Shown here one piece after another: positions 253 to 64,000 of a DNA stretch of 64,000 nt (position 1 is its first letter; every line of letters begins with the position of its first letter). A program made the translations under genes and the position numbers. The notes below the pieces were generated by a model. That model was not told the origin of the DNA, made no database searches, and was given only the letters and a program-made list of their open reading frames with translations. Source of the DNA: Escherichia phage skuden; sequence record MN850585.1; one strand, written 5' to 3'.

Positions 253-453
253 TCATAATTTCACCTTAGTTGGTAATGCACTGAATGCTATAGCTAACCC
301 TAAAAATGGTTTGAAGCATGACCATAAATCCATCTGACCATGATATGCGAAACTCCATTGCGGGTCTGAAAAACCCCATACCATAACACTAACTCCAAAA
401 AAGAAGATTAGAATGTGAAGTATGTATATCAACGTTTTTGATATTTTAAACAT
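253..453 (-). CDS. hypothetical small membrane protein
   Basis: ORF track 66 aa, hydrophobic segments; no recognisable motif. Confidence 0.35.
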   Translation of the reverse strand: MFKISKTLIYILHILIFFFGVSVMVWGFSDPQWSFAYHGQMDLWSCFKPFLGLAIAFSALPTKVKL

Positions 454-607
454 TTTAACTTATCTCTCAACTCACAATAAGAGAGTCCTAAAAAGAACCC
501 CAGTAAGACAGAACCTATGAACAGGCCAATGATGCTCTCTGCCATATCTAACATCCAATAAAAAAGGTGATGTAAGCCTATCAAGACTCACACCACCTTG
601 TCAAGTT

Positions 608-3542: not shown

Positions 3543-3749
3543 TTAAATCTTTTTAGAAAACTTCGAAAAGAGTTCTCTTAGTTTTTCAGTGATACCTAAC
3601 TGTATCTCTAATATTTCGAAGATAACCCATAGTAACATGGCTCCAAACAATGAACCTTGTTCAAAGTCAGTAAATAGGTTAACAATAAGCATACCAATCA
3701 CAATAGCTGGTGCATCAACAACCAAACCTTCCCAAATGCGTTTAAGCAT
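3543..3749 (-). CDS. hypothetical small membrane protein
   Basis: 68 aa with a hydrophobic stretch AIVIGMLIVNLF. Confidence 0.4.
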   Translation of the reverse strand: MLKRIWEGLVVDAPAIVIGMLIVNLFTDFEQGSLFGAMLLWVIFEILEIQLGITEKLRELFSKFSKKI

Positions 3750-3984: not shown

Positions 3985-5117
3985 TAAGGAACCTCTAAAA
4001 ATCCACTATTCAAATCATCTACAACAGTATTCAATAGGTACGCACCGTTCTGTTGCTCCTGATTAGCATTCTGCTCTTTATCAATTTCCATCTTCTTAAT
4101 CATGTACTTCAAAGGTGGTTCTTTAGGAGCTACAAAATCTCTGGGAATGCCAAACATATCATACAGTGGGGCAGCATTATAATAAACCCACTCATGAAGA
4201 AGCTTTGTATTTAAGCCAACTACAGCACGTCCTTCGGAGAAGATATAATACGACCATTTCTCTTCACTTTCAACTACTTCATCTAAGATTACTTTAATCT
4301 CTGGAAGAATTTGTTGAAAAGCTTTCTGCCACTCATCATCCCTTAAAGTTTCTTTTAAAACTTCAATATCAATTTTAGTGTGAAGGATTTCATCAAGCAT
4401 AATCTTCTGCACAGCTTGAGCAATACCCTGAAATTTATCTTGAGCATCAAGTGCAAAAGTACATGCAAATGATGCCATAAAAGATATACCTTCAAGTGCA
4501 GTCACTGCAAACAGTCCTTTCAGAATCACTTTATGGAAGTGTAAAGGGTCTTTGTCCAGAAGTGAGTCACGCACATAACTCAGCCGATAGTTTATACCTT
4601 CATCCAGTAATTCTTCAAGAACACGATTCACAGTTTTTAATCGGTCTTGCACAGCAACATTCTGGTTAATCTCATCTAAGATTGTTTCAGGGTTTTTAAT
4701 ACATTGTCTTACAATCTCTGAGTAAGTAAGAGCATGTAGGTTTTCAATCTCAGACTGCTTCATAATTGCAGTTGCATAGATGTCGTCAGAGATAAAGGGT
4801 GCAAAGGCAAATGCCAAACTCTTAGCAACTTGAGTGTCTGCTTCCCATTGCCACTTAAGAATCTCAAGCATTACACCTGACATTGATGCTGGGACACTCT
4901 CAAAATCAAGACGTGATTGTTCAAAAGGGAACTCATCTTCTGACCAATCTTGTGCTTTTTGTTGCTTATATAGTTCAAAGATTTTTGGGTAGTGTTTATT
5001 AAGTGAGTCAAAAGTTTTTCTCTCACCACCTAAAAAGATTGGGTGCTGATTAATCATAGCGTGATTTCTCCTTTCTTTATCATTTCTAAGGCTTGTTTTC
5101 TGTCTAAAACTTCCCAA
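3984..5117 (-). CDS. nrdB: ribonucleotide reductase small subunit (class Ia beta)
   Basis: 377 aa ferritin-like protein adjacent to nrdA; true start may be the internal MINQHPIF Met. Confidence 0.85.
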   Translation of the reverse strand: MGSFRQKTSLRNDKERRNHAMINQHPIFLGGERKTFDSLNKHYPKIFELYKQQKAQDWSEDEFPFEQSRLDFESVPASMSGVMLEILKWQWEADTQVAKSLAFAFAPFISDDIYATAIMKQSEIENLHALTYSEIVRQCIKNPETILDEINQNVAVQDRLKTVNRVLEELLDEGINYRLSYVRDSLLDKDPLHFHKVILKGLFAVTALEGISFMASFACTFALDAQDKFQGIAQAVQKIMLDEILHTKIDIEVLKETLRDDEWQKAFQQILPEIKVILDEVVESEEKWSYYIFSEGRAVVGLNTKLLHEWVYYNAAPLYDMFGIPRDFVAPKEPPLKYMIKKMEIDKEQNANQEQQNGAYLLNTVVDDLNSGFLEVP

Positions 5118-14386: not shown

Positions 14387-15130
14387 TTAAATATTCAGGA
14401 TAGCTCTTAGTTTGCTCTCAAGGTCTTCAAGAGTACCATTATTATGAATAATGTCACGCTCATATTTTGTGGAAATGCCATTTTCTGAAACATGTGATGA
14501 AACTTTGTCCACATTGTCTCTTTTTACTTCAATAGTTTGGTGTGCAAATCTACTCAGCCACTCAGCTTCAGAGTCAAATCTTAAATCACTGATTAAAACA
14601 ACACCTTCTTGATTTCTAAGTGAGCAAACATCAAAGAAATTTACCATTCGTTTTTCGAGGTCTTTAGACCAGAACTTGTCACCCATAACTTTACGGATAA
14701 CTTCAGTGCCCCAAATCTGTTGAATTTGCCTTGATGAGAATCTATACTTTTTGCTAAATCCCAGACGTGTTAATAGAGTCGGTTTAGCAACCTTCTTAAG
14801 CTCCATGATTAATCGTCCGGTTAACTCTGACATAAGCTTAAAATCCATATGGTAACGTTCGCCTTTGAAGGTGAACTCCATAGCTTCAGTAACTTTGAAC
14901 ATTAGCTCAGGATATGATAAGTCAAATACCTGTGGAGTCTCTTTAGTTTCACCATACAGGTCATTCCAAGTCAGGTCAAATATCTTTGATGCAGATAGCT
15001 TAAGGTTGTCTGCATAAGCCATTACAGCAACATTATAGCCATATTCATCCTCTAAGATGTTCTTCACAATAGAACATGAGGTGTCTTTTCCAGAACGTGC
15101 CTTTCCAGTAAATGCGATAATATTACTCAT
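14387..15130 (-). CDS. deoxynucleoside monophosphate kinase
   Basis: P-loop IIAFTGKARSGKDT at N-terminus; 247 aa, similar in size and start to phage dNMP kinases. Confidence 0.7.
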   Translation of the reverse strand: MSNIIAFTGKARSGKDTSCSIVKNILEDEYGYNVAVMAYADNLKLSASKIFDLTWNDLYGETKETPQVFDLSYPELMFKVTEAMEFTFKGERYHMDFKLMSELTGRLIMELKKVAKPTLLTRLGFSKKYRFSSRQIQQIWGTEVIRKVMGDKFWSKDLEKRMVNFFDVCSLRNQEGVVLISDLRFDSEAEWLSRFAHQTIEVKRDNVDKVSSHVSENGISTKYERDIIHNNGTLEDLESKLRAILNI

Positions 15131-15191
15131 TTTATCTCCCTTAATTACTAAAAAGCCCCCAACTAAGGAGGCTTGTAAGATTTATAAAGAC

Positions 15192-15992
15192 TTAGTGCAG
15201 TTGCTCAGCAGACTCTTTTTCAGCCATAGCTGAGAGTTGCTTCACAAAATCATCACCGAAGTTAATGCGAAGTTTCTCTTCAATGATTGAAGCACCAATA
15301 TTCACCAAAACATCATTGATTGCTTGCATACTGACACCGCCAGTCATCTCCTCAATGAACTCAATACTCATACCCATCATCTGTGAAAGTTGGATTAGTG
15401 CAACGATATTCATCATCGTAGAGATAGCTGGAATCATCAGTGCAACTTTCACCTGAAGTGGTTCTATATCAGCTACAGAGTCATTTTCAACAGCTTCTTC
15501 CAAAGAATCTTTAGTTTGCTGGATAATTTCTTGGATTCGTGGGTTTAGTTCTTCTACCCCCCAATCAAGTTTTTCATATCGTGACAGCTTCTCTTCCATT
15601 CGCTTCTCAAGAGCAGCCATAACAGCACTTGTTGATGAAATTATCATGGAAATTAACTCATTATTACCTAATGACAGTAACAAGTCCTTTTCTTCAGAGT
15701 TAAGGGAGATATAGTCATTTTTCTGCATCTCCTTAAAAATGAACTCTGCAAGAGCATCAACACCTACGACTATAGATGCCAAAGCAAGTGTAGTGTCTGT
15801 CAGCATCATGTTGACCTGTTCTGCAAAAGCACCGTTATCAGACTTGTCTTTAGGCAGGTTATAGATTGCAGGCATAAACTGTTCTGTGTAGTTGTTACCA
15901 CGAAGAATCATAGCCATGCTTTCTACGGCATTGATTAAAAATGCTTCGTCAATACCTTTTTCTTCAAGCATCTTTTCTACATCGATATTCAT
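15192..15992 (-). CDS. hypothetical protein
   Basis: ORF track 266 aa. Confidence 0.45.
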   Translation of the reverse strand: MNIDVEKMLEEKGIDEAFLINAVESMAMILRGNNYTEQFMPAIYNLPKDKSDNGAFAEQVNMMLTDTTLALASIVVGVDALAEFIFKEMQKNDYISLNSEEKDLLLSLGNNELISMIISSTSAVMAALEKRMEEKLSRYEKLDWGVEELNPRIQEIIQQTKDSLEEAVENDSVADIEPLQVKVALMIPAISTMMNIVALIQLSQMMGMSIEFIEEMTGGVSMQAINDVLVNIGASIIEEKLRINFGDDFVKQLSAMAEKESAEQLH

Positions 15993-15993
15993 A

Positions 15994-16416
15994 TTATTTC
16001 TCTCTCAGTTGGTTAAGTTTCTTTCTAGAACATTTTAAGTTTTCGGATGAAGAAAAGTCAAGTGTCTTTTCAGAACGTGGATAATAGTGCCTATCCCAAG
16101 AAGTTTCAACATCGTTAATCAGTGACGCTAGATTACACAGGTCTGTACCACTTTGCAACCTCTTTTTAAGAGAATCTAGTAAAGCAACTGTGTCTTTAGC
16201 TTTACGTCTAGCTGTAGCAACATCTTTCATATGCTCAAATACAGAGCATTTCAAGTCATCTTCATAGTTTTCAGACAACTCTATTTCATGTTGTATATCA
16301 ACCATTCTCCTGTGATGGTGAGCATATTCCCGTTGAGCAGCAATGTCAAGTTCTTCCAACTTCTGCAAAGCTCTAACAAAGTCAGCTATGTCTGGGTGAA
16401 CAAACATTTTCTGCAT
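15994..16416 (-). CDS. hypothetical protein
   Basis: ORF track 140 aa. Confidence 0.45.
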   Translation of the reverse strand: MQKMFVHPDIADFVRALQKLEELDIAAQREYAHHHRRMVDIQHEIELSENYEDDLKCSVFEHMKDVATARRKAKDTVALLDSLKKRLQSGTDLCNLASLINDVETSWDRHYYPRSEKTLDFSSSENLKCSRKKLNQLREK

Positions 16417-16590
16417 GTAAGCCTCTTTTAAGTAACTATTAAGTTTTAATCTTTTATCTTAACGTATTCTATACGTTATACTTTAAAGCTTTTTAAAAGC
16501 TATTAAATAATCTTTTAAGAGTTTTAAAGTATCTGTATAGTTAAACTGTTAAGTAACCTTTTAAGTAAAAACCCACTTCGCAAAGATTAA

Positions 16591-16614
16591 CACCTTGTCA
16601 AGTACATTGTCAAC
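16591..16614 (+). promoter_or_regulatory. conserved motif CACCTTGTCAAGT plus second TTGTCAAC half-site, copy 2 of 3
   Basis: Exact 13-mer also at 594 and 57100; divergent intergenic region upstream of the DNA polymerase gene, followed by TTTTTATAAT. Confidence 0.5.
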
Positions 16615-16673
16615 TTGCTTTTTATAATTTTTTGCAGTAATGTATGAGGTTAATGATTTTAGAGGGAGTAAAA

Positions 16674-19373
16674 ATGGAAAACGTAGATTTTAAAAACTTA
16701 CATTTGGTTGGTGATACAGAAACTGATGGTTTACTCCTTGAGTTCACTAAAGTTCACGTAATGGCTTTCGCAGACTATAAATCTGACGATGAAGAGCCGC
16801 CTGTATGGGTCTTTACAGATGAGCCTATCCTCGGTCACAAGTATACTAAGTATATTAAGGGTGGCTTACGTGAAGGTATTGAGTTTGCGTTAAAGGCAAA
16901 ACGTCTTTGCATCCATAACGGTCTCGGTTATGACTGGTGGGTTTTCAATCACATTGCACCGGATTTATGGAACTTTGATAATCCAAAATGTAAACCGTGG
17001 AGTAATTTCTTTCAGGATTCTCTTATCCAGTCTCGTGTTCAGTGGATGGATAGACCAACTCCAAAGGGCTATAAAGGTGCTCATGGTTTGGCTGCATGGG
17101 GTGCTCGTGTTGGTGTTCGTAAGCCAGAGATTGAGCATTGGGGTGTGTGGAATGCAGAAATCTTCACTCGTGTTGTAGAAGATATCCGTATTAACGCCAA
17201 AACTAAACGGGCACTTGATAACGAGTATCTCAAGCTTAAGAAGTGTGGCATAGACACTTATGAAACCTACATGCGAGCTAAAGAGACATCTTTCTGGATG
17301 AGCCAGCAAGCTATCAATGGTTGGAAAGCTGATAAAGAGCTTATGGAGTTCCATGTAAAGGAACTTGACAAGTTGACTAATGAGCTTGCTTCAGAGGTTG
17401 AACCACATCTACCTCCAACTATTAAGACCAAAGGTAAAGTCACTGGAGAAGAGTTTGCAAAAGCTTGGAATGAGTATGTTGAAACATTTGGTCATGCAGA
17501 TGGACTGAAGAGAATTACCAAGTACCCTAAGACAAAGTACCGTCAGCAGGTACGTAATGGTGAGATGCAGACATATGAAATCAAACCATTTGGTAAGCCA
17601 ACTACAAAGATTTTTAACATTGAAAAGAGAAATTGCTATACACCAACCAACTCTGTAACTGGTGAAGAGTACAAGGAAGGTTTTGTAGCAATGAAGGATG
17701 CTCGTGCAATTTGCAATGAGTTGAATGCAAAGATTGGTAAGAAGTGCAAAGACTGGAAGCCAGTAAAAACAGTTAAAACTGTGAAGTACTATAACAGTCA
17801 TGTTGTTAACCACTTTGAGCTTGAGTCAAGTCGCTACACAGGTTTGATTGATGCACCATATACACCAATTGAGTTCGAAGTTTCTCGTATGACTCAGGTA
17901 GCAGTTGTTAAAGACTACTTGAAATCAGTTGGTTGGGTTCCAGATGACTGGAACTACAAGAAAGACTCAGATGGTCGTCCTGTTAAGGTTTGTCGTTTCA
18001 AAGACAACAAAAAGATGATTACAAAGCATCCTAAGTGGCAGGAAATGGTTGAGCGGTGTGGTTTGAGTTATGTTGAACATGAAGGTGTACAGTACATCGA
18101 GCATAACTGGTCTGTGAAGAAATACACAGATTTGCTTGAGCCTTGCTTAATCCGTACTTCACCAAAACTTACTGAATCATCTTATGATACGATTGAAGGT
18201 GAGCTTGGACAGAAGATTGCGAAGTACTATACTTTGATGCACCGACGTAGAACTATTGAGAACTCAAAGGATGACGAGAAAGGTTGGCTGAACCAGATTC
18301 GTCCTGATGGTCGCCTTAGTGCTGGTGCAATGGTGTTTGGTACTTCAACTGGACGTATGACACAATATGGTATTGTAAACGTACCATCTGGTGCTGCTGT
18401 ATATGGAGCACCTATGAGGGAGGTGTGGACTTGTGAAGATGGTACAGATATCATCTCCGTAGACCAAAACTCAGCCCAGTTAGTTCTTCTTTGTAACTTT
18501 ATGGGTGATGAAGACTTCACTAAAGCGGTAACTGAGGGTAAAGAGTCAGTAGAGTTCACTAAGCAAGATGATGGTAGATACTACTGTAAGCATCTTGACA
18601 AGTATCTTAACCCAGAAACTGACAAGTATCTGCGTTATGATGCTGAGAATGACCTCTATGAAGTCTACACAGGGACTGATGCGCATACACTGAACAGTAT
18701 TTACTTTGGTCTTAACAAAGAAGAGGATATTATTCTTTGTCGGGAGACGCAGGATGAGGAACTTCTTCACGAGATTACAAAGGGTCGTAAAAAGGCTAAG
18801 AATGGCATCTACGCCCTGTTATTTGGAGCCGGAGACGAGAAGTTTGCAAAAACTATCAAAGCATCATCTACGGAAGAGGGTGCATTAACTAAACAAACTT
18901 ACTTTGTACGTCTACCTAAGATTAAAAAGCTGCTTGATAGACTAGAGGAAGACTTCAAAGCAACTAAGAAAGCACTTGAAGAGGTTTTTGGAAAAACTTC
19001 TGCAATTGCCAAAGGTGGTTATATCAAAGTTGCTGGGGCGTGGTTATGGTGTAAATCTCCACATAAGTTATTGAATTACACACTTATGGGCAGTGAGGCT
19101 CAAGTTCAGAATGAAGGTATTAACTTGGCAAACAGGGAACTCACAGAGCGTAAGCTTACAGTACTAAATGGTAGGAAGCCTGCTATTGGTGCTAGGTGGG
19201 TCTGTAGTTACCACGATGAGGTCTCTTTAGAGGTTCCAACCAAAGATGTACCTGATGTTAAGGAGATTATTGATAGAATGTATGGTCAAGCATCAAAAAA
19301 TCTTGGATTAAAGAGTAAGACGCTTGTTACAGGCACTGGTAAGGTAGGTAAGACATGGTACGCCGTACACTAA
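16674..19373 (+). CDS. DNA polymerase, family A
   Basis: Exo I DTETDGL; motif A-like VDQNSAQLVLL; motif B KKAKNGIYALLFGAG; motif C YHDEVSLEV; start set at ATG 16674 with RBS AGAGGGAG. Confidence 0.9.
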   Translation: MENVDFKNLHLVGDTETDGLLLEFTKVHVMAFADYKSDDEEPPVWVFTDEPILGHKYTKYIKGGLREGIEFALKAKRLCIHNGLGYDWWVFNHIAPDLWNFDNPKCKPWSNFFQDSLIQSRVQWMDRPTPKGYKGAHGLAAWGARVGVRKPEIEHWGVWNAEIFTRVVEDIRINAKTKRALDNEYLKLKKCGIDTYETYMRAKETSFWMSQQAINGWKADKELMEFHVKELDKLTNELASEVEPHLPPTIKTKGKVTGEEFAKAWNEYVETFGHADGLKRITKYPKTKYRQQVRNGEMQTYEIKPFGKPTTKIFNIEKRNCYTPTNSVTGEEYKEGFVAMKDARAICNELNAKIGKKCKDWKPVKTVKTVKYYNSHVVNHFELESSRYTGLIDAPYTPIEFEVSRMTQVAVVKDYLKSVGWVPDDWNYKKDSDGRPVKVCRFKDNKKMITKHPKWQEMVERCGLSYVEHEGVQYIEHNWSVKKYTDLLEPCLIRTSPKLTESSYDTIEGELGQKIAKYYTLMHRRRTIENSKDDEKGWLNQIRPDGRLSAGAMVFGTSTGRMTQYGIVNVPSGAAVYGAPMREVWTCEDGTDIISVDQNSAQLVLLCNFMGDEDFTKAVTEGKESVEFTKQDDGRYYCKHLDKYLNPETDKYLRYDAENDLYEVYTGTDAHTLNSIYFGLNKEEDIILCRETQDEELLHEITKGRKKAKNGIYALLFGAGDEKFAKTIKASSTEEGALTKQTYFVRLPKIKKLLDRLEEDFKATKKALEEVFGKTSAIAKGGYIKVAGAWLWCKSPHKLLNYTLMGSEAQVQNEGINLANRELTERKLTVLNGRKPAIGARWVCSYHDEVSLEVPTKDVPDVKEIIDRMYGQASKNLGLKSKTLVTGTGKVGKTWYAVH

Positions 19374-22263: not shown

Positions 22264-22420
22264 ACTATGTTAAGTACAATCATTCTGTTTGCATTAGTTG
22301 TCTTTGTGTTGTCTTACATCACAAGTAAACTTTTGAACACATCCTTTGCAATGGGTGTTTTGTTCACAATCTTTTGTTTTGTAACACATATAGCTGTCAG
22401 GACTTTTATATAAAAAGTTG

Positions 22421-54854: not shown

Positions 54855-54861
54855 ATTAATT

Positions 54862-54938
54862 TGGTCTCTGTTGGAGGACTTGAACCTCCGGCCTTACCGC
54901 CCCAAACGGAACGCTCTACCAAGCTGAGCTAAACAGAG
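54862..54938 (-). tRNA. tRNA-Pro (anticodon UGG)
   Basis: Acceptor CTCTGTT/AACAGAG, D-arm GCTC/GAGC, anticodon loop TTTGGGG, T-arm GGAGGTTCAAGTCCTCC. Confidence 0.7.
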
Positions 54939-58229: not shown

Positions 58230-58601
58230 ATGAAAGCTAAGAGTGCAAAAGACTTTTATTGCTTCCTACAATCCTATATCAATTCCGTGCAAAATGGTGA
58301 AAGGTACAGCCTTAATGATGTTATCCCAACACCTTTGACATGGAGACTCAGTAAATGGCCTGAAGAAGATATTACACCAACAAGCAAACAACACACCTAC
58401 AAACCTGAAATCAATATTCCAGACTCTGAGAACCTATTATATCCAATGTTCCATATTGTTGGTCTTGGGAGATTCCTTATGGATATTCAGTATGTAATTG
58501 GTAAAGGTTATAAGGTTAAAGGCATTGTTGTTGGTGATGTATCTCCACACCACAAAGGTTATTTTAGACTAAACGCACATTTAGAGGCTAAAAAGAAATG
58601 A
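58230..58601 (+). CDS. hypothetical protein, paralogous to the N-terminal domain of the next gene
   Basis: Shared pattern K-(A/T)-x-DF...GERY/GKRY...W-(P)-E-(E/A)-DI...FMDLQY/LMDIQY. Confidence 0.5.
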   Translation: MKAKSAKDFYCFLQSYINSVQNGERYSLNDVIPTPLTWRLSKWPEEDITPTSKQHTYKPEINIPDSENLLYPMFHIVGLGRFLMDIQYVIGKGYKVKGIVVGDVSPHHKGYFRLNAHLEAKKK

Positions 58602-59731
58602 TTAAAGCAAAGACTTACCCAGACTTTAAAGAGTTTGTGAAGGGCTTCATTGCAAACGTAAAAGCTGGTAAGAGATATGATTTTAGAGCATATCAAGAGG
58701 CTATTTTACCGCTTACCTATAGTTCGTATTGGCCTGAAGCTGATATTGCAGAAGTTGAGGAGTTTGACTACAAACCAGACTACAAAGTTCCATTTAGTGA
58801 TGAGTTGCTTTACAGCATTGGTGCTCAAATGAGAACTTCTGACTTCTTCATGGACTTACAATATGCAATTATCAATGGTAAAGATGTTGATACAATTTAT
58901 TGTGAATGGCTGGCAAGAGTTAAACCATTCTCAATGTTGAATGCTAAGTTGAAGGATGCTATCAAGCCGCCAGCAATCACTCAGCAGCCAACCAATCAAA
59001 CAGTAAATGAAGGTGGTACGCTTACCCTAAGTGTTGTTGCAACGAATGCCACTGGATATCAATGGAAAAAGGATGGTGAGGATATCACTAGCGCCACATC
59101 TGCAACCTACACAAAACAGTCTGTATTACCTTCTGATGCAGGTTCATACACTTGTGTTGTATCTGGAGAGGCTGGGACAAGTGTTACCTCAGATGCGGCA
59201 ACAGTTACTGTTAATGCACTGCCTGTGATTACACAGCAGCCTTCTGGTCAGACCGTCAATGAGGGTGGAAACATCAACTTGGAAGTGACTGCAACAGGTG
59301 CAACAGGTTACCAATGGAAGAAAGATGGCTCTGACATTCCTTCAGCTACAAATGCTACCTATAGCAAGTCTGGTGCGCTGCCAGCAGATGCAGGTTCATA
59401 CACTTGCGTTGTAACAGGTGCGGGTGGTGCAGTGACATCTAATGCTGCTGTAGTAACTGTGAACGCACTTCCAGTAATCACTCAACAGCCAACCAATCAA
59501 GAAATCACTGAAGGTGAGACCTTAACGCTGAATGTTGCGGCAACAGGTGCGACAGGTTACCAGTGGAAGAAAGGTGAGGAAGACATCCTCGATGCAACTA
59601 CTGCAACTTACACCAAAGAAGGTGCAACTGCTGCTGATGCAGGAAGCTATACATGTGTAGTTACTGGCGCAGGTGGCTCTGTAACATCTAATGCAGCAAC
59701 AGTTACTGTTAACCCAGCAGGGGAGGCATAA
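58598..59731 (+). CDS. protein with three tandem Ig-like domains
   Basis: Three repeats of about 81 aa: ITQQP(T/S)xQ(T/E)...ATGYQWKK...DAGSYTCVV(T/S)G...VTVN. Confidence 0.65.
   Translation: MIKAKTYPDFKEFVKGFIANVKAGKRYDFRAYQEAILPLTYSSYWPEADIAEVEEFDYKPDYKVPFSDELLYSIGAQMRTSDFFMDLQYAIINGKDVDTIYCEWLARVKPFSMLNAKLKDAIKPPAITQQPTNQTVNEGGTLTLSVVATNATGYQWKKDGEDITSATSATYTKQSVLPSDAGSYTCVVSGEAGTSVTSDAATVTVNALPVITQQPSGQTVNEGGNINLEVTATGATGYQWKKDGSDIPSATNATYSKSGALPADAGSYTCVVTGAGGAVTSNAAVVTVNALPVITQQPTNQEITEGETLTLNVAATGATGYQWKKGEEDILDATTATYTKEGATAADAGSYTCVVTGAGGSVTSNAATVTVNPAGEA
58965..59725 (+). repeat. three tandem repeats of about 243 bp encoding the Ig-like domains
   Basis: Repeated blocks ggttaccaatggaag...gcaggttcatacacttg(c/t)gttgta. 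Confidence 0.7.
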
Positions 59732-60195
59732 TGCAACTCTCAAGAAAAGGTTTAGAAGCTATTAAGTTCTTTGAAGGTCTTAAACTAGAGGCTTACGAAG
59801 ATTCTGCTGGAATCCCTACAATTGGGTATGGGACAATCCGTATTGCTGGTAAACCTGTTAAGATGGGTATGAAGATTACCGCTGAACAAGCTGAACAGTA
59901 TCTTCTCGCAGATGTTGAAAAGTTCGTTGCAGCAGTGAACAAATCCATCAAGGTTCCAACTTCCCAGAATGAGTTTGACGCACTTGTAAGTGAAACATAC
60001 AACATTGGCATCACAGCTATGCAAGACTCTACATTTATCAAGCGCCACAACGATGGTAATAAGGTCGGTTGTGCAGAAGCTATGCAGTGGTGGAACAAGG
60101 TTACAGTCAAAGGTAAGAAGGTCACTTCAAACGGCCTGAAAAACAGACGTAGAATGGAAGCTGACATTTATCTTGACAGTGTATATCCAAAGTAA
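59731..60195 (+). CDS. endolysin, T4 lysozyme-like (GH24) muramidase
   Basis: LEAYEDSAGIPTIGYGT matches the GH24 catalytic region (Glu, Asp, then TIGYG); 154 aa. Confidence 0.8.
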   Translation: MQLSRKGLEAIKFFEGLKLEAYEDSAGIPTIGYGTIRIAGKPVKMGMKITAEQAEQYLLADVEKFVAAVNKSIKVPTSQNEFDALVSETYNIGITAMQDSTFIKRHNDGNKVGCAEAMQWWNKVTVKGKKVTSNGLKNRRRMEADIYLDSVYPK

Positions 60196-60203
60196 TATCT
60201 TCA

Positions 60204-60232
60204 TAGGCTCCTTCGGGAGCCTTTTTATTTTT
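60204..60232 (+). terminator. rho-independent terminator after the endolysin gene
   Basis: AGGCTCC-TTCG-GGAGCCT followed by TTTTTATTTTT. Confidence 0.75.
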
Positions 60233-60246
60233 CTAAGGAGAAAACT

Positions 60247-60645
60247 ATGAGACTTTGGGCTAGTGACTTTGGAACTTTTAAGTACACTCGTAATGGCTCG
60301 CTTGTACGCATTGTCGGGAACAATGTGGTTTCAAGAGGTGACAAGGTATATACACGGTTTACTGTAGAGCTTGTTGAGCTGTCACCTATTGAGTCTGTGA
60401 ACAATGGCCTGTTCAAGTTTGAGACTTACAATGTCAACGAACATGGACAATTCAACCCTCTTGGTGAAAGTGGACTTGATATTATTTCAGAGCACCCATT
60501 GACAAAAGAGCAACTCGCAAGTTATTATAAAACTGTTCTGGAAAGGCAGTTAGCAACACATGAACAAGAAGCTAACTATCATTTACAACATTGCGAAGCT
60601 TTAAGAGCAAAAATCGAACAAGCAGAGAGAGGTTTTTATGAATAA
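60247..60645 (+). CDS. hypothetical protein
   Basis: ORF track 132 aa. Confidence 0.45.
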   Translation: MRLWASDFGTFKYTRNGSLVRIVGNNVVSRGDKVYTRFTVELVELSPIESVNNGLFKFETYNVNEHGQFNPLGESGLDIISEHPLTKEQLASYYKTVLERQLATHEQEANYHLQHCEALRAKIEQAERGFYE

Positions 60646-61033
60646 TATCAGTCAGATTAAAGTTAAAGTTGATGTTAGTCGTTACAGTGGAGATGAAGAA
60701 TTAGACCTGCGAGATGCGATTCTCTATGAGAAGAATGGTAATCTGCATTTACATTTTGAAGGCACAAACACATATCTACACAGATGTCGAGATGATGTAG
60801 ATGGTTGTCCTGTTTTTGCTTGGTATAATTTAGAGTTTCCTCTTTATGCAATCCACTATCCAGATGGTGGAGAAGACTGGACAACTCAATCAATCTTTGA
60901 TGAGCTTAATGGTGTTCCAGTTGAGCAAGAAGAGCAAGAACCTGTTGAACTCACCTTCACTTTTATCAAAGAAGAGAAAGTAGGTGACTTGTCAGTAACT
61001 GAAGCAATTCAAGTCTCACAGGTTATTCGTTAA
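60638..61033 (+). CDS. hypothetical protein
   Basis: ORF track 131 aa, start overlaps upstream stop. Confidence 0.45.
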   Translation: MNNISQIKVKVDVSRYSGDEELDLRDAILYEKNGNLHLHFEGTNTYLHRCRDDVDGCPVFAWYNLEFPLYAIHYPDGGEDWTTQSIFDELNGVPVEQEEQEPVELTFTFIKEEKVGDLSVTEAIQVSQVIR

Positions 61034-61326
61034 TGAGTAAAGTACAGGTTGTTTTCCCTATTTGTGACTTCTCACTAGAGCGTGAACTTGACCTGTACGA
61101 AGAAATTACTGACGAAATTATCTGGTCTGTTGTAGAAGAGGCTATCAAGAAGCTGTATGGTGGCCTCTTAAACCCATCAAGTAAGAAGTTAAGCACTAAA
61201 CAAGTAGCTGACACATATACTTCTTATGATGCCTACAACAAACCTTTTGAAAATACCTGCTTTGACCTTATGGTAGGTAATAACAAAGTCAACTATTTCT
61301 TCGTCAGAGAGTTTAACGATGAGTAA
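61033..61326 (+). CDS. hypothetical protein
   Basis: ORF track 97 aa. Confidence 0.45.
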   Translation: MSKVQVVFPICDFSLERELDLYEEITDEIIWSVVEEAIKKLYGGLLNPSSKKLSTKQVADTYTSYDAYNKPFENTCFDLMVGNNKVNYFFVREFNDE

Positions 61327-61663
61327 GCTCCATGTCACAGTATACAAAAACTTCTCAGATATCAAAGAGTCTTTAACAAATAAGCTTGACTTACAACGTA
61401 AAAGACTCTTTTTAATGTACGACATAGACAACTACAACCATCCTAAAGAGTTTAACTACAAAGATGGTACAAAGGTTGTCGAATTTGAAGATTCTGTGAC
61501 GGTGTATGTCAAGCATGACTTACCAGCAAAGTACATAGGGATGTTAGAGTATTACATATTCAAACATACAGGTATGCGTGGTGAAGCTGTCAAGATATCT
61601 TCTATAGAAGTTTTTGAGAAACCTAACACACAACTTAAAAAGTATTTAATGAGGAAACTGTAA
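61319..61663 (+). CDS. hypothetical protein
   Basis: ORF track 114 aa. Confidence 0.45.
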   Translation: MSKLHVTVYKNFSDIKESLTNKLDLQRKRLFLMYDIDNYNHPKEFNYKDGTKVVEFEDSVTVYVKHDLPAKYIGMLEYYIFKHTGMRGEAVKISSIEVFEKPNTQLKKYLMRKL

Positions 61664-62244
61664 TGTCCGAAGAGCAACAGGATATCATTCCACAAGTAAC
61701 ACTTGTACAACACTTTGGAAATATTGAAGGGTGTGTTGCACTTTTTCAACCAAGCATCAACTCTCCTGCAAAAGTTTGCAAGCTGACTATGAATGTTAAC
61801 AACATCAGTGTTTGCCTTGTTGATGAAGTTCAGTACTTCAAGTTTAATGACAGAGAGGTTGATGCTGCACTATTGAAGTACCGAGCAAACCTAGAAAAAG
61901 ACATCGACCACAAAGAACTTGTAACACTGTTTGGTGACCTTCACAAACTTCTTGAAAAAGTTATGAAGCGCACATATTACATGAACAATGGTTCAATCAT
62001 CACCACTTTGATTTCACCATGTATTTCAGAGCCAATTTTAACTGATGACGGTGGATACTACGTGGTAGCATCAGCAGATTCTGATTGGTGGATGAAGAAC
62101 ACAGCACTTAAAACAGTGATTGAGGCTATCCGTGAACACATTCCTTCATTCAGCCCGTGGAAAGGTAAAAATGATGATTTTATCGCACTATTGAGTGAAG
62201 AGAGTAACAAGCGCAGTGCATTACTGCCTAAAAAATACTCTTGA
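61663..62244 (+). CDS. hypothetical protein
   Basis: ORF track 193 aa. Confidence 0.45.
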   Translation: MSEEQQDIIPQVTLVQHFGNIEGCVALFQPSINSPAKVCKLTMNVNNISVCLVDEVQYFKFNDREVDAALLKYRANLEKDIDHKELVTLFGDLHKLLEKVMKRTYYMNNGSIITTLISPCISEPILTDDGGYYVVASADSDWWMKNTALKTVIEAIREHIPSFSPWKGKNDDFIALLSEESNKRSALLPKKYS

Positions 62245-62327
62245 CCGAGTATACAAAACTGATTATGATGGGAGCTATCGAGAGGTAGTTCCCTTTTTAG
62301 TTTCTAGATAAGAGACATGGTAAAAGA

Positions 62328-62546
62328 ATGAAAAAGTTAACTACAGTTGAAGATTACTACAAACTTTCCCTGTTAGAACAGTATCGTAGAAGCCAGAATA
62401 TCAGAAAATGCTATGGTAAACACGCTGAAGGTGACTTTTACCGTTGCTACGATGCAGATTTAAAAGGCGTAACACCTAGAGGGAAAGTCCTGCAAAGACT
62501 TGTTGACCTTGAATGGAACAAACGATTGAGAGGGGTTGGAAAATGA
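62328..62546 (+). CDS. hypothetical protein
   Basis: ORF track 72 aa. Confidence 0.4.
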   Translation: MKKLTTVEDYYKLSLLEQYRRSQNIRKCYGKHAEGDFYRCYDADLKGVTPRGKVLQRLVDLEWNKRLRGVGK

Positions 62547-63046
62547 TTTACGAAGAAAGATACAAAATAGATTACCAGAAGACTGGTCATCATGTCTCCC
62601 TAAGAGTAACCAAACCAAATGGAGATACCGGTATCATAGCACATTTTGGTGGTGATTACTGGTACGGTACAGGATGCTTTGAAGGTTACAATCAAGAATA
62701 CTTGAAAGCTTTCTACAGAGACTTTACAAATGACTACAATAGGGTTGTTGATGAAAAGAATAAGTGCATTAAGCATGAACACCGTGCCAGAGGCTGCCTA
62801 AGTATTGCTATGGTACTGGCGTTCTTCTTAGCAATGTTACTGACAGTATCAGCAATTAGCTGCATAGCTCAAGACTTGACCATTACACAGATTACTGCAA
62901 AGGTACATGATGTTTGGTACTTGTATGCTGTTCCTTTAGCTGGTATCATCATCTCACTAATGAGGTTCAGAGTTCATAAGAAACGACTTAAGGACTCTGA
63001 GGTTAAACTTGAAGAGGTAAGTAAAGAATGCAACCTACAATTATAG
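62513..63046 (+). CDS. hypothetical membrane protein
   Basis: TM segments LSIAMVLAFFLAMLLTVSAISCIA and YLYAVPLAGIIISL. Confidence 0.45.
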   Translation: MEQTIERGWKMIYEERYKIDYQKTGHHVSLRVTKPNGDTGIIAHFGGDYWYGTGCFEGYNQEYLKAFYRDFTNDYNRVVDEKNKCIKHEHRARGCLSIAMVLAFFLAMLLTVSAISCIAQDLTITQITAKVHDVWYLYAVPLAGIIISLMRFRVHKKRLKDSEVKLEEVSKECNLQL

Positions 63047-63122
63047 CTGTATGTGTTCGTTTTGCAATCGCTGAAATGATTAACAAGGCAATCTTAAAAG
63101 ATGCCTATGGAGAGACTAAGTA

Positions 63123-63347
63123 ATGATTAAGACACCTGTACCAATTTTTGGATTTCCTTCTATAGAAGAGTTTAAAGTTTATCTTGACAAAAACTTCTAC
63201 AACGAGCAGCCTGTTACTTTGCTGAAGAGTGACTTATCAGAGCTTCTTGATATGGTTATTAAGGCAACTCCTGAGAAGGAACCTGAACAGAAAGCTGAGA
63301 AGAAGACTAGTAAGAAATCCGATAAGAAGACTGAAAAGTCTGAGTAA
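63123..63347 (+). CDS. hypothetical protein with Lys/Glu-rich tail
   Basis: 74 aa; C-terminal PEKEPEQKAEKKTSKKSDKKTEKSE. Confidence 0.4.
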   Translation: MIKTPVPIFGFPSIEEFKVYLDKNFYNEQPVTLLKSDLSELLDMVIKATPEKEPEQKAEKKTSKKSDKKTEKSE

Positions 63348-63398
63348 TAACTTAGGGGTTACTTGATAGCCCCTTTGTAGAGCTTAGAAGGTAGCGAA

Positions 63399-63863
63399 AT
63401 GAAAATTAAAGAAGTCGTTCAAAAAGCAATGCTTGACAACTCAACTAAAGATGAAATGTACAAAGAGATTTGTGATAAGTTGAATTGTTCAAGACATGCT
63501 GCTAAGGCTCTTGTACATTGCTTTATCTGGGAATGCTCAGAAGCTTATATGCAATATGTAGCTTTTGAAAGTTCTCACTTACTAGGTGATGTAGAAGTTG
63601 GTGAGAAACTAAAAGAACCTGAGATGAAAACAGTTCCTAAAGTTGGTAATGTATACCCTCTTAAAGATTTCAAGACTGGAAAGATTGTTGCAAAAGGTGT
63701 AGTAGAATCTGTCTACCATGATGGTAAATACTTACTTAAAATATTTGAGTATGACAGCCACTATAAGCACTTATGTGGGATTACATTCTTAGTAACAGAA
63801 GAAGACCTTATTAAGAACAACAGCAACAAGTTTGCAGTACCAGCCTACCAAGTTTTACGATAA
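63399..63863 (+). CDS. hypothetical protein
   Basis: ORF track 154 aa. Confidence 0.45.
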   Translation: MKIKEVVQKAMLDNSTKDEMYKEICDKLNCSRHAAKALVHCFIWECSEAYMQYVAFESSHLLGDVEVGEKLKEPEMKTVPKVGNVYPLKDFKTGKIVAKGVVESVYHDGKYLLKIFEYDSHYKHLCGITFLVTEEDLIKNNSNKFAVPAYQVLR

Positions 63864-64000
63864 TGGTGTGATAGCTATGGAAAAAGATAACTTAAAAGAA
63901 GTTGAAGGTAACTACCTAGTACTTGATTGGAATGATATTCGGGAAGCACTATCCGAAGAAAGCCTTGACCTGCTAGAGCAACTTATCTTCTCAGTACGCC

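What the first reader, a model, noticed from the sequence alone, without database searches (positions are those of the whole stretch)
60247..63863. Block of nine tightly packed, partly overlapping small ORFs of unknown function downstream of the endolysin
Genes overlap by 1-34 nt (ATGA-type junctions), which suggests translational coupling. None has a recognisable motif except a membrane protein (62513-63046) and a Lys/Glu-rich tail protein (63123-63347). Such blocks in virulent phages often encode host-takeover or anti-defence proteins.
Basis: inference. Interest (0 to 1): 0.35.

Follow-up and report, generated by a model that had tools for sequence, protein, structure and literature searches.

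The report
Conserved Felix O1-type small-gene block
The nine small overlapping genes are real, expressed and conserved genes of Felix O1-like phages (Felix O1 ORF34 to ORF25); they are already annotated in hundreds of genomes, and no search here assigned any of them a function.

Summary
The window is a Felixounavirus genome, about 96% identical to Felix O1 and finno. The nine + strand ORFs are Felix O1 ORF34-ORF25 and Bas63 gp122-gp113.

They are genes, not chance ORFs:
- They cover 94% of the region (shuffles at most 26%).
- dN/dS is 0.02-0.35.
- Lengths and junctions are the same in three genera.
- Each matches its own PHROG of unknown function.
- Felix O1 RT-PCR lists transcripts for eight of the nine orthologues.

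Corrections to the gene map:
- The membrane gene most likely starts at 62543, giving a 4-nt ATGA overlap rather than 34 nt.
- A conserved 31-codon gene (63028-63123) was missed.
- A further gene starts at 63877.
- A block gene present in many relatives (phrog_5380) is absent here.

No Pfam, NCBIfam, PADLOC, PDB-sequence or Foldseek search gave a function. The families are confined to Ounavirinae.

What this analysis adds:
- The block appears to be two units, each preceded by a conserved sigma-70-like promoter that abuts an intrinsic terminator.
- O4-O5 extend to Erwinia phages.
- O1, O2, O5 and O9 carry old alleles swapped by recombination.

Published Bas63 knockouts make O7 and O8 conditionally essential on one host. 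The anti-defence or host-takeover reading is plausible but untested. This is an ordinary, already known block.

The parts
59731..60195 (+). Endolysin (context; not part of the block). No N-terminal hydrophobic segment. Overlaps the upstream Hoc-like capsid decoration gene by 1 nt.
   Evidence: Pfam Phage_lysozyme, E 2.5e-40; no hydrophobic window; orthologue of Felix O1 ORF35 and bas63_0123.
60173..60201 (+). Sigma-70-like promoter candidate P1 (TTGACA-N17-TATCTT), ending 3 nt before the terminator hairpin.
   Evidence: TTGAC is invariant in 34 loci, but it lies in the endolysin codons Leu-Asp. The -10 is TATCTT, TAGATT or TATATT at constant spacing. Function is inferred.
60205..60222 (+). Intrinsic terminator (AGGCTCC-TTCG-GGAGCCT plus T-run); corresponds to Felix O1 t35.
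   Evidence: identical hairpin in 34 of 36 loci; a t35 entry is in Table 2 of PMC3185647.
60247..60645 (+). O1, 132 aa, pI 5.7 (Felix O1 ORF34, bas63_0122, phrog_4266). Two old allele classes occur within the genus.
60638..61033 (+). O2, 131 aa, acidic (net -16) (ORF33, bas63_0121, phrog_4348). The N-terminal half is exchanged between lineages and the C-terminal half is conserved. The 'D-Ala-D-Ala carboxypeptidase' label in some records is unsupported.
61033..61326 (+). O3, 97 aa, acidic (ORF32, bas63_0120, phrog_4385).
61319..61663 (+). O4, 114 aa, basic (ORF31, bas63_0119, phrog_4040). Distant homologue gp097 in Erwinia phage M7.
   Evidence: hhalign probability 94%, E 9e-8.
61663..62244 (+). 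O5, 193 aa (ORF30, bas63_0118, phrog_4109). Alpha/beta protein with no fold match in the PDB. Distant homologue gp098 in Erwinia phage M7. Sub-threshold DUF5092 similarity.
62241..62269 (+). Sigma-70-like promoter candidate P2 (TTGACC-N17-TATGAT), directly abutting the terminator hairpin.
   Evidence: The -35 and -10 are kept in 30 of 31 loci (19 distinct sequences) while the spacer varies. The one exception has TTGCAG with a consensus TATAAT. Function is inferred.
62270..62293 (+). Intrinsic terminator (GGGAGCTATC-GAGA-GGTAGTTCCC plus T-run); Felix O1 t29.
   Evidence: PMC3185647 Table 2; Suspvirus keeps the stem after losing one base from each arm.
62328..62546 (+). O6, 72 aa, basic (net +8) (ORF28, bas63_0117, phrog_4459).
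62543..63046 (+). O7, 167 aa inner-membrane protein (ORF27, bas63_0116, phrog_4343). It has a conserved N-terminal domain of about 85 aa (motif HFGGxxWxGTGCFEGYxxEYLKAFYRDFxxDYN), two transmembrane helices and a charged C-terminal tail. Predicted topology is N-in/C-in.
   Evidence: conditional essentiality of Bas63 g116.
63028..63123 (+). Probably an amphipathic helix.
   Evidence: Synonymous changes between genera leave the peptide conserved.
63123..63347 (+). O8, 74 aa (ORF26, bas63_0114, phrog_4457). A conserved 50-aa N-terminal domain is followed by a Lys/Glu-rich tail of variable length.
   Evidence: conditional essentiality of Bas63 g114.
63354..63374 (+). Conserved GGGG...CCCC hairpin with a weak T-run between O8 and O9. 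Possibly a weak terminator or an RNA-stability element.
   Evidence: The stem is kept in three genera while the loop differs.
63399..63863 (+). O9, 154 aa (ORF25, bas63_0113, phrog_4713). A nearly invariant 55-aa N-terminal helical domain is joined to an exchangeable C-terminal domain. HTH similarity is weak and below threshold.
63877..64000 (+). Start of the next gene of the same unit (Felix O1 ORF24 homologue, phrog_4330), cut off by the window end.

Best explanation
The region is the conserved, lineage-specific, non-virion gene block of Felix O1-like phages (subfamily Ounavirinae). It holds ten complete small genes plus the start of an eleventh, from nine or more unrelated protein families found nowhere else.

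Shown:
- The genes are real, under purifying selection and syntenic in three genera.
- Their Felix O1 orthologues are transcribed.

Inferred organisation: two transcription units.
- Unit 1 is O1-O5.
- Unit 2 is O6-O7-O7b-O8, probably reading on into O9 and the ORF24 homologue.
- Each unit starts at a host-type sigma-70 promoter placed directly in front of an intrinsic terminator.
- Transcripts from upstream therefore stop there, and new ones start at the same spot. At the second site the expected start lies inside the 5' arm of the hairpin, so the promoter's own transcripts cannot form it.
- Within a unit the 1-, 4- and 8-nt stop/start overlaps probably couple translation, so the products are made together.

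Inferred function: these are cytoplasmic and inner-membrane accessory proteins acting on the infected cell in mid-infection. They are not lysis or virion proteins.
- O3-O5 form the oldest part, kept even in Erwinia phages, and probably serve a general phage need.
- O7 (membrane-anchored, with a conserved cytoplasmic domain), the micro-protein O7b and O8 act at or near the inner membrane. They matter only on some hosts.
- O9 may be a small DNA-binding regulator with an exchangeable second domain.
For: Genes are real:
- 94% ORF coverage against at most 26% in shuffles.
- dN/dS 0.02-0.35.
- Each ORF matches its own PHROG at E below 1e-43, and O7b at 2.7e-23.
- Same order, lengths and junctions in Felixounavirus, Suspvirus and Mooglevirus.
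- O1-O7 are intact in 28-29 of 29 IMG/VR loci.

Lineage-specific:
- 18, 27 and 36 protein clusters among 5.8 billion proteins for O5, O7 and O9.
- 11 hits among 1.84 billion cluster representatives for O9.
- All 29 IMG/VR loci lie on contigs of 51-94 kb, most of them the 81-94 kb expected of an Ounavirinae genome.
- No paralogy between the nine families.

Expression and location:
- RT-PCR in Felix O1 puts ORFs 25, 26, 28, 32, 33 and 34 at 25 min, ORF31 at 5 min and ORF30 at 60 min.
- None of them is in the Felix O1 virion proteome.

Promoter and terminator modules:
-.
- They are the only two of 33 terminator-like hairpins in the window with such a promoter 0-3 nt upstream.

Other points:
- Deep core: O4 matches M7 gp097 (hhalign 94%) and O5 matches gp098.
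- Host-dependent need: Bas63 g114 and g116 are more essential on S17-1 (gene mapping).
- O7 topology and conserved domain.
Against: No biochemical function is assigned to any of the proteins.
- Both AlphaFold models are of modest confidence (pLDDT 67-68), and Foldseek found nothing useful.
- The promoters are inferred from conservation only. The -35 of site 1 lies in coding sequence, and a transcript started there could still contain most of the hairpin.
- The Felix O1 authors found no promoter for this arm.
- RT-PCR timings differ between genes that I place in one operon (ORF31 at 5 min, ORF30 at 60 min). Either the operon model or that data set is imprecise.
- PhageMaP scores for gp113, gp115 and gp117-122 are only in figures that I could not read.
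- The HTH reading of O9 rests on sub-threshold hits.
Confidence: 0.55

Rival explanations
1. The block is an anti-defence or host-takeover island. Each small protein would neutralise a host immune system or shut off a host process early in infection.
For: - The proteins are small, and some are acidic (O2 net -16, O3 net -7).
- They are non-virion.
- The promoters are of host type.
- O1, O2, O5 and O9 have mosaic alleles, and O9 is replaced in some genomes.
- O7 and O8 are conditionally essential.
Against: - Most genes peak at 25 min, not 5 min.
- None is named as a counter in the 12-system PhageMaP screen, which did find g77, g79, g80, g84, g85 and g130.
- O1-O7 are near-universal with dN/dS below 0.2.
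- The divergent alleles have saturated dS, so they are old variants that were swapped, not fast-evolving ones.
- There is no similarity to any solved structure, including anti-defence proteins in the 2026 PDB copy.
Confidence: 0.2
2. The second half of the block is lysis-related. O7 would be the missing holin or an antiholin of Felix O1-like phages, with O7b as a partner peptide.
For: - The endolysin has no signal or SAR segment, so it needs a holin.
- No holin is established for this genus (the Bas63 stretches examined, carry no holin annotation).
- O7 has two transmembrane helices and a highly charged C-terminal tail, and lies on the same strand 2.3 kb after the endolysin.
- The PhageMaP authors speculate on a lysis role for gp116.
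Against: - A strong terminator and five genes separate O7 from the endolysin.
- The best-conserved part of O7 is the 85-aa cytoplasmic domain, not the transmembrane helices.
- g116 is dispensable on three of four hosts.
- More typical holin candidates exist elsewhere, for example 3543-3749 (-), 68 aa with two transmembrane helices. Whichard et al. named gp79, gp116, gp118, gp119 and gp131, not gp27.
- The spanins lie in another arm of the genome.
Confidence: 0.08
3. The first operon (at least O3-O5) encodes core phage functions, such as replication, transcription or assembly helpers, that are essential on every host. It would not be host-directed at all.
For: - O4-O5 are kept even in Kolesnikvirus at about 20-30% identity.
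- dN/dS is very low, 0.02-0.09 within the genus.
- They are present in 28 of 29 loci.
- PhageMaP reports 'varying essentiality' for small genes in this part of the Bas63 genome.
Against: - There is no similarity to any replication, transcription or morphogenesis family.
- They are not in the virion proteome.
- Per-gene PhageMaP scores could not be read.
- In one IMG/VR genome the O4 and O5 matches cover only 81% and 51% of the query (L037). I did not check whether that genome is complete or viable.
Confidence: 0.15

Closest known systems
Felix O1 ORF34-ORF25 (gp34-gp25; NC_005282, about 14,490-18,639, complement) and Bas63 bas63_0122-bas63_0113 (MZ501086)
   Same: These are the same genes: 83-100% amino-acid identity, with the same order, lengths, overlaps and terminators.
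   Different: The window lacks the phrog_5380 gene (Felix O1 ORF29) between O5 and O6, as Bas63 does. Its alleles of O1, O2 and O5 are of the Felix O1/finno type, not the Bas63 type.
Clusters of small non-essential early and middle genes in phage T4, each with its own promoter (my own knowledge of T4 genome organisation)
   Same: Both are runs of small, tightly packed, often overlapping ORFs. They are non-virion, mostly dispensable in the laboratory, needed on particular hosts, and transcribed by host RNA polymerase.
   Different: There is no sequence relationship. T4 redirects RNA polymerase with its own factors, whereas no such factor is known for Felix O1. The promoter here sits in front of, and abuts, a terminator instead of following it.
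Class II holins (two transmembrane helices, N-in/C-in, charged C-terminus)
   Same: O7 has two transmembrane helices, predicted N-in/C-in topology and a basic then acidic C-terminal tail.
   Different: O7 carries an 85-aa conserved cytoplasmic domain, is not adjacent to the endolysin, and is dispensable on most hosts in Bas63.
N-terminal domain of DivIVA/GpsB
   Same: The resemblance is at motif level: FEGYxxEYLKAFYRDFxxDYN against [20 protein letters not shown]. In the model a loop is followed by a long helix.
   Different: It is not significant. The PDB profile search gave E 0.023, rising to 0.1 with a deeper alignment. hhalign gave probability 0.8%. There is no Pfam DivIVA hit.
Pfam DUF5092 (PF17010)
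   Same: 13 of 14 members of the O5 family hit it over about 85 residues, best E 5.8e-5.
   Different: All scores are below the curated cut-off (20.7 against 27 bits). The family itself has no known function, and no paper in the library mentions it.

Membership tests
Felix O1 gp25-gp34 orthologue set (PHROGs 4266, 4348, 4385, 4040, 4109, 4459, 4343, 6279, 4457, 4713) | Full-length profile match of each protein to its PHROG | tested here: met
   E from 1.6e-78 to 4.5e-43 for the nine, and 2.7e-23 for the 31-aa ORF.
Felix O1 gp25-gp34 orthologue set | Same gene order and position, after the Hoc-like gene and the endolysin | tested here: met
Holin (class II) | Small membrane protein with two transmembrane helices and a charged C-terminus | tested here: inconclusive
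   O7 has the helices and the tail, but it is 167 aa with a large conserved cytoplasmic domain.
Holin (class II) | Forms lethal membrane holes that release the endolysin and set lysis timing | not testable with these tools
   Needs expression and lysis-timing experiments. Bas63 g116 is dispensable on three of four hosts.
Holin (class II) | Encoded in a lysis cassette with the endolysin or spanins | tested here: not met
   A terminator and five genes lie between O7 and the endolysin. The spanins are in another arm.
DivIVA/GpsB domain | Significant profile match to the DivIVA domain or to GpsB structures | tested here: not met
   E 0.023-0.1 against PDB sequences; hhalign probability 0.8%; no Pfam DivIVA hit in 18 members.
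D-alanyl-D-alanine carboxypeptidase (label on O2 orthologues in GenBank) | Match to a peptidase M15/VanY or S11/S13 family | tested here: not met
   No Pfam, NCBIfam or PDB-sequence hit for O2.
Helix-turn-helix DNA-binding proteins (O9 N-terminal domain) | Profile match above threshold to an HTH family | tested here: inconclusive
   HTH_23 E 0.28 for the window protein and 0.0054 for the distant relative P0089. Sigma70_r4_2 E 0.078 in 2 of 21 members. All are below the cut-offs.
Known anti-phage defence or anti-defence proteins | Similarity to a described family or solved structure | tested here: not met
   PADLOC gave only a weak KwaA hit in the transmembrane region (E 0.014). PDB profile searches gave nothing significant. 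No dedicated anti-defence library was available.
Known anti-phage defence or anti-defence proteins | Loss of the gene lowers plating on a host that carries a defence system | not testable with these tools
   The published Bas63 screen names other genes as counters. Its text names none of gp113-gp122 among counters or triggers, and the per-gene scores are only in figures I could not read.
Translationally coupled operon | Stop and start codons overlap or abut, and the geometry is conserved | tested here: met
   Overlaps of 8/1/8/1 and 4/19/1 nt, with the same geometry in phiSUSP1. Moogle and Silverhawkium keep the 8-nt and 4-nt overlaps; at the 1-nt junctions they abut or, in one case, overlap by 4 nt.
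Translationally coupled operon | Translation of the downstream gene depends on translation of the upstream gene | not testable with these tools
   Needs reporter fusions with upstream stop mutations.
Sigma-70 promoter | -35 and -10 hexamers at 16-18 nt spacing, conserved while the flanks vary | tested here: met
   At site 2, TTGAC and TATGAT are kept in 30 of 31 loci with a variable spacer. At site 1, a TAnnTT -10 stands at constant spacing.
Sigma-70 promoter | A transcript 5' end maps about 7 nt downstream of the -10 | not testable with these tools
   No transcript-mapping data were found for this genus.
Intrinsic terminator | G+C-rich hairpin followed by a T-run, with the structure conserved | tested here: met
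   Felix O1 Table 2 lists t29 and t35.

The most novel reading that the evidence does not exclude
The O6-O7-O7b-O8 unit would be a previously undescribed inner-membrane module. It would combine a membrane-anchored protein with a strictly conserved cytoplasmic domain, a 31-aa partner peptide and a small protein with a charged tail, and would adapt infection to particular host envelopes or counter a membrane-linked host barrier (hence the requirement on E. coli S17-1). In the same reading, the promoter-in-front-of-terminator arrangement would be a general insulation device of this phage subfamily.
Probability: 0.15. Interest if true: 0.5.

Novelty: already known. Interest (0 to 1): 0.2.

Why it matters
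Felix O1-like phages are used for Salmonella typing, biocontrol and therapy, yet about a third of their genes, including this block, have no known role.

The practical results here are small:
- A corrected gene map: the O7 start, the 31-aa gene, and the absent phrog_5380 gene.
- Removal of a misleading 'carboxypeptidase' label.
- A testable transcription model with two conserved host-type promoters.
- A ranking of which genes are old core (O3-O5), host-dependent (O7, O8) or exchangeable (O1, O2 N-terminal half, O5, O9 C-terminal half).

These points tell an experimenter where to start. Nothing here changes current understanding of phage biology.

Tried and rejected
1. Profile searches. Pfam, NCBIfam, PADLOC and PHROGs scans of all nine proteins gave only PHROGs of unknown function.

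2. PDB sequence searches. Profile searches with six- to twenty-one-sequence alignments of every family gave nothing significant.

3. Structure prediction of O7. The AlphaFold2 model was poor (pLDDT 67, pTM 0.37). Foldseek returned only generic helical hairpins such as PI3K p85 coiled coils, which I rejected.

4. Structure prediction of O5. The AlphaFold2 model had pTM 0.62. Nothing in the PDB matched (best E 0.18, TM below 0.25). In BFVD only its own family and Erwinia phage M7 gp098 matched.

5. DivIVA/GpsB lead for O7. Rejected as unsupported.

6. O7 as holin. Judged unlikely (see rivals). O7b as a lipoprotein or o-spanin was rejected: the peptide has only 8 residues before its Cys, and there is no basic n-region.

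7. O9 representative search. A 1267-aa Calx-beta repeat protein matched the C-terminal half ten times. I rejected it as a repeat artefact.

8. Positive selection as the cause of the divergent O1, O2, O5 and O9 alleles. Rejected, because dS is saturated and dN/dS is below 0.5.

9. Internal duplication. All-against-all hhalign between the nine families showed no relationship.

10. Rfam. No RNA family matched in 56-64 kb.

11. Literature.
- No supplementary tables of the PhageMaP paper were available.
- Two other phage gene-essentiality preprints, a knockout study (HIDEN-SEQ) and a transposon-mutagenesis study, do not cover this genus.
- The DruSM1 knockout study concerns an unrelated phage.

12. 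The 'D-Ala-D-Ala carboxypeptidase' annotation of O2 orthologues. Unsupported.

Full report
**Identity of the window.** DNA at 60200-63900 matches 239 phage records, and 208 of them cover at least 80% of it. The best are Escherichia phage finno (96.0%) and Salmonella phage Felix O1 (95.7%), both genus Felixounavirus, subfamily Ounavirinae. The annotated relatives give the mapping:
- The nine ORFs are Felix O1 ORF34, 33, 32, 31, 30, 28, 27, 26 and 25.
- In Bas63 (MZ501086) they are bas63_0122 to bas63_0113.
- Upstream lie the endolysin (59731-60195; Pfam Phage_lysozyme, E 2.5e-40) and the Hoc-like capsid decoration protein (58598-59731; PMC12609058).

**Check of the observation.**
- All nine ORFs are present as described.
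- + strand ORFs of at least 70 aa cover 94% of 60247-63863. In 1000 shuffles the mean was 3.8% and the maximum 26%.
- Junctions: 8 nt (ATGAATAA), 1 nt (TAATG), 8 nt (ATGAGTAA), 1 nt, then an 83-nt gap.
Relatives annotate the start that corresponds to 62543, the PHROG profile starts at residue 11 of the long form, and only that start has a Shine-Dalgarno sequence (GAGGGG). The real overlap is probably the 4-nt ATGA.
It overlaps O7 by 19 nt and O8 by 1 nt, matches phrog_6279 (E 2.7e-23) and is annotated in Bas63, phiSUSP1 and Silverhawkium. Its peptide is conserved between genera through synonymous changes.
- Another gene starts at 63877 and runs off the window (Felix O1 ORF24 homologue).
- The 83-nt gap corresponds to a slot that holds a 181-241-aa gene (phrog_5380, Felix O1 ORF29) in Felix O1, finno, phiSUSP1, Moogle and Silverhawkium. 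The slot is empty here and in Bas63. That gene gave a match in 18 of 29 IMG/VR loci.
- Tight packing is not peculiar to this block. In Bas63, 47% of same-strand junctions overlap in the replication arm and 69% in the arm that holds the block.

**Are they genes?**
- Against finno, Felix O1, Bas63, phiSUSP1, Moogle and Silverhawkium, every ORF aligns over its full length. Identity is 83-100% within the genus and 48-79% between genera.
- Nei-Gojobori dN/dS is 0.02-0.35.
- In 29 IMG/VR loci, O1-O7 are intact in 28-29. O7b and O8 are always present, with the O8 tail varying in length. O9 gave no match in two loci, a 13%-coverage match in a third, and a divergent allele (48% identity) in a fourth.
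- The Felix O1 genome paper reports RT-PCR products for ORFs 25, 26, 28, 32, 33 and 34 (maximal at 25 min, as for the endolysin ORF35), ORF31 (5 min) and ORF30 (60 min). ORF27 is not listed (PMC3185647).
- None of gp25-gp34 appears among the virion proteins found by mass spectrometry in that paper.

**Search for function.**
- Pfam, NCBIfam and PADLOC gave nothing above threshold, and PHROGs gave only families of unknown function.
- The 'D-alanyl-D-alanine carboxypeptidase' label on O2 orthologues in several GenBank records has no support.
- Profile searches of all nine families against PDB sequences gave no significant match.
- Searches of 5.8 billion proteins found 18 (O5), 27 (O7) and 36 (O9) clusters, all close relatives.
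- A full HMMER search of 1.84 billion representatives with the O9 profile found 11 proteins.
- An IMG/VR scan with the O5 profile found 29 loci, all on contigs of 51-94 kb and most of them at the 81-94 kb expected of an Ounavirinae genome.
- All-against-all profile comparison shows the nine families are unrelated to one another.

**Individual proteins.**
- *O7.* It has a strictly conserved N-terminal region (HFGGxxWxGTGCFEGYxxEYLKAFYRDFxxDYN), two hydrophobic helices and a basic then acidic tail. The charge distribution predicts N-in/C-in. The AlphaFold model is weak (pLDDT 67, pTM 0.37): three strands, a disordered conserved loop and two long helices. Foldseek returned only generic coiled coils. 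A motif-level likeness to the GpsB/DivIVA N-terminal domain did not hold up: E 0.023 rising to 0.1, hhalign probability 0.8%, and no Pfam DivIVA hit.
- *O5.* It gives a moderately confident alpha/beta model (pTM 0.62) with no PDB neighbour. In BFVD it matches its own family and gp098 of Erwinia phage M7 (19% identity, TM 0.58, E 3e-7). tblastn confirms this (E 6e-7). The gene before gp098, gp097, matches O4 (hhalign 94%, E 9e-8). The gene before that has exactly the length of O3 but no significant similarity. O4-O5 are thus the oldest part of the block, and no endolysin match was found in the 39-kb stretch of M7 examined. O5 members also hit DUF5092 below threshold (13 of 14). That family has no known function.
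- *O9.* A nearly invariant 55-aa N-terminal domain is joined to a C-terminal domain that comes in several types. Weak HTH_23 and sigma-70 region 4 hits, also seen in two distant relatives, suggest a helix-turn-helix but do not establish it.
- *O8.* It has a conserved 50-aa domain and a Lys/Glu-rich tail of variable length.
- *O2 and O3* are acidic, and *O4 and O6* are basic.

**Transcription signals.**
- Two strong intrinsic terminators lie in the block: after the endolysin (60205-60222) and after O5 (62270-62293). They correspond to the t35 and t29 entries of the Felix O1 paper's terminator table.
- Each is immediately preceded by a sigma-70-like promoter: TTGACA-N17-TATCTT (60173-60201, 3 nt before the stem) and TTGACC-N17-TATGAT (62241-62269, abutting the stem).
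- Of 33 terminator-like hairpins in the whole window, only these two have such an element 0-3 nt upstream.
- At the second site, 31 loci (19 distinct sequences, three genera) keep TTGAC and TATGAT in 30 cases while the 3' half of the spacer varies freely. The single exception has TTGCAG with a consensus TATAAT. This is the footprint expected of a working promoter.
- A start about 7 nt after the -10 would lie inside the 5' arm of the hairpin. Transcripts made there could not form the terminator, while transcripts from upstream would stop.
- At the first site the -35 lies in the endolysin codons Leu-Asp, and the -10 varies (TATCTT, TAGATT, TATATT) at fixed spacing. A transcript started there could still contain most of the stem, so this site is less certain.
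- A third conserved hairpin (63354-63374) with a weak T-run separates O8 from O9.
- I therefore read the block as two units, O1-O5 and O6-O8 (with O9 and the next gene), transcribed by host RNA polymerase. This is inference. The Felix O1 authors found no promoter in this arm, and their RT-PCR timings within 'my' first operon disagree with one another.

**Published functional data.**
- PhageMaP, a genome-wide knockout screen of Bas63 (bioRxiv 10.1101/2024.10.10.617714), numbers genes as the locus tags do. The named anchors fit the annotation: g124 is the Ig-domain protein, g84/g85 are rIIA/rIIB and g79/g80 are the NAD-synthesis enzymes; on that numbering g123 is the endolysin and g130 the gene just upstream of the tRNA cluster.
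- It reports g114 (O8) and g116 (O7) as more essential on E. coli S17-1 than on three other strains.
- It describes the 66-80 kb region as small genes of varying essentiality.
- None of g113-g122 is named among the counters or triggers found with 12 defence systems. The endolysin g123 is reported as a trigger of retron Ec67.
- Per-gene scores are only in figures and supplements that I could not read.

**Population pattern.**
- Within Felixounavirus, O3, O4, O6, O7b and O8 are nearly invariant.
- O1 (about 81% against 97%), the N-terminal half of O2 (overall 64-75% against 90% or more), O5 (83% against 97%) and the C-terminal half of O9 fall into distinct allele classes.
- The divergent alleles have saturated synonymous divergence and dN/dS below 0.5. 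They are old variants exchanged by recombination, with one breakpoint inside O2, and not products of recent positive selection.

**Explanation and rivals.**
- My best-supported reading (confidence 0.55) is that the block is a lineage-specific set of non-virion accessory genes, expressed from host-type promoters in two insulated, translationally compact units, and acting on the infected cell in mid-infection. It has an old core (O3-O5), a host-dependent inner-membrane group (O7, O7b, O8) and a possible small regulator (O9).
- A dedicated anti-defence or early host-takeover island (0.2) fits the small size, acidity and mosaicism. It fits poorly with the timing, the near-universal presence, the strong purifying selection and the silence of the Bas63 defence screen.
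- A lysis role for O7 (0.08) is weakened by several points. A terminator and five genes separate it from the endolysin. Its conserved part is the cytoplasmic domain. It is dispensable on most hosts. More typical small two-helix membrane ORFs lie elsewhere in the window (for example 3543-3749 on the - strand).
- An essential core function for O3-O5 (0.15) cannot be excluded without the knockout scores.

**Verdict.** The finding is real but ordinary. These are the already annotated conserved hypothetical genes of a well-known phage genus, and no search here gave them a function. The modest additions are the corrected gene map, the two conserved promoter-terminator modules, the extension of O4-O5 to Kolesnikvirus, and the pattern of conserved and exchangeable genes. 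Interest is 0.2.

Noticed in passing
Its 96 nt are identical in finno, Felix O1 and Bas63. The peptide is conserved across genera through synonymous changes.
   Followed up: yes
window 62245-62327: This gap is an empty slot. Felix O1, finno, phiSUSP1, Moogle and Silverhawkium carry a 181-241-aa gene here (phrog_5380, Felix O1 ORF29). The window and Bas63 lack it. The gene therefore shows presence/absence polymorphism within the genus.
   Followed up: partly
window 60173-60222 and 62241-62293 (+): At both sites a sigma-70-like promoter sits 0-3 nt in front of an intrinsic terminator hairpin. These are the only two such cases among 33 terminator-like hairpins in the window. The hexamers are conserved across three genera while the spacer varies.
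   Followed up: yes
window 63877-64000 (+): Start of a further gene of the same unit (Felix O1 ORF24 homologue, phrog_4330), cut off by the window end. In relatives it is followed by about 1.6 kb without annotated genes; finno annotates two short repeat regions there.
   Followed up: partly
window 59731-60195 (+): The Bas63 orthologue of this endolysin (g123) is reported in the PhageMaP preprint as a trigger of the retron Ec67 defence system. It was toxic only in cells that carry the retron.
   Followed up: no
window 58598-59731 (+): The Hoc-like capsid decoration protein (Hex-Dec in the Bas63 cryo-EM paper) has 377 aa here. Felix O1 and phiSUSP1 have 294 aa and Bas63 has 460 aa, so the number of Ig-like repeats varies between close relatives.
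   Followed up: partly
window 60638-61033 (+) and GenBank records such as MN850619 (finno_12): Orthologues of O2 are labelled 'D-alanyl-D-alanine carboxypeptidase' in many records. No Pfam, NCBIfam or PDB-sequence match supports this. It looks like a propagated annotation error.
   Followed up: yes
GU169904.1 (hit H19): The record named Staphylococcus phage SA1 (147 kb) holds a stretch 94% identical to this Felix O1-type block. The record is probably chimeric or contaminated.
   Followed up: no
window 50108-54938 (-): A cluster of 25 tRNA genes lies on the - strand, as expected for Felix O1-like phages.
   Followed up: no
window 3543-3749 (-), 253-584 (-), 22267-22413 (+): These are small ORFs with one or two hydrophobic helices. 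The 68-aa two-helix ORF at 3543-3749 looks more like a typical holin than O7 does. The holin of this genus has not been established.
   Followed up: no
L037 (IMG/VR UViG_2706796256), about 4001-4580: In this relative the O4 and O5 matches cover only 81% and 51% of the query. This suggests a disruption or rearrangement of the otherwise universal O4-O5 pair.
   Followed up: no
L008 5807-6103 (Silverhawkium gp105): Mooglevirus Silverhawkium has an extra 98-aa gene (phrog_9967) inserted between O8 and O9. This is a second variable slot in the block.
   Followed up: no
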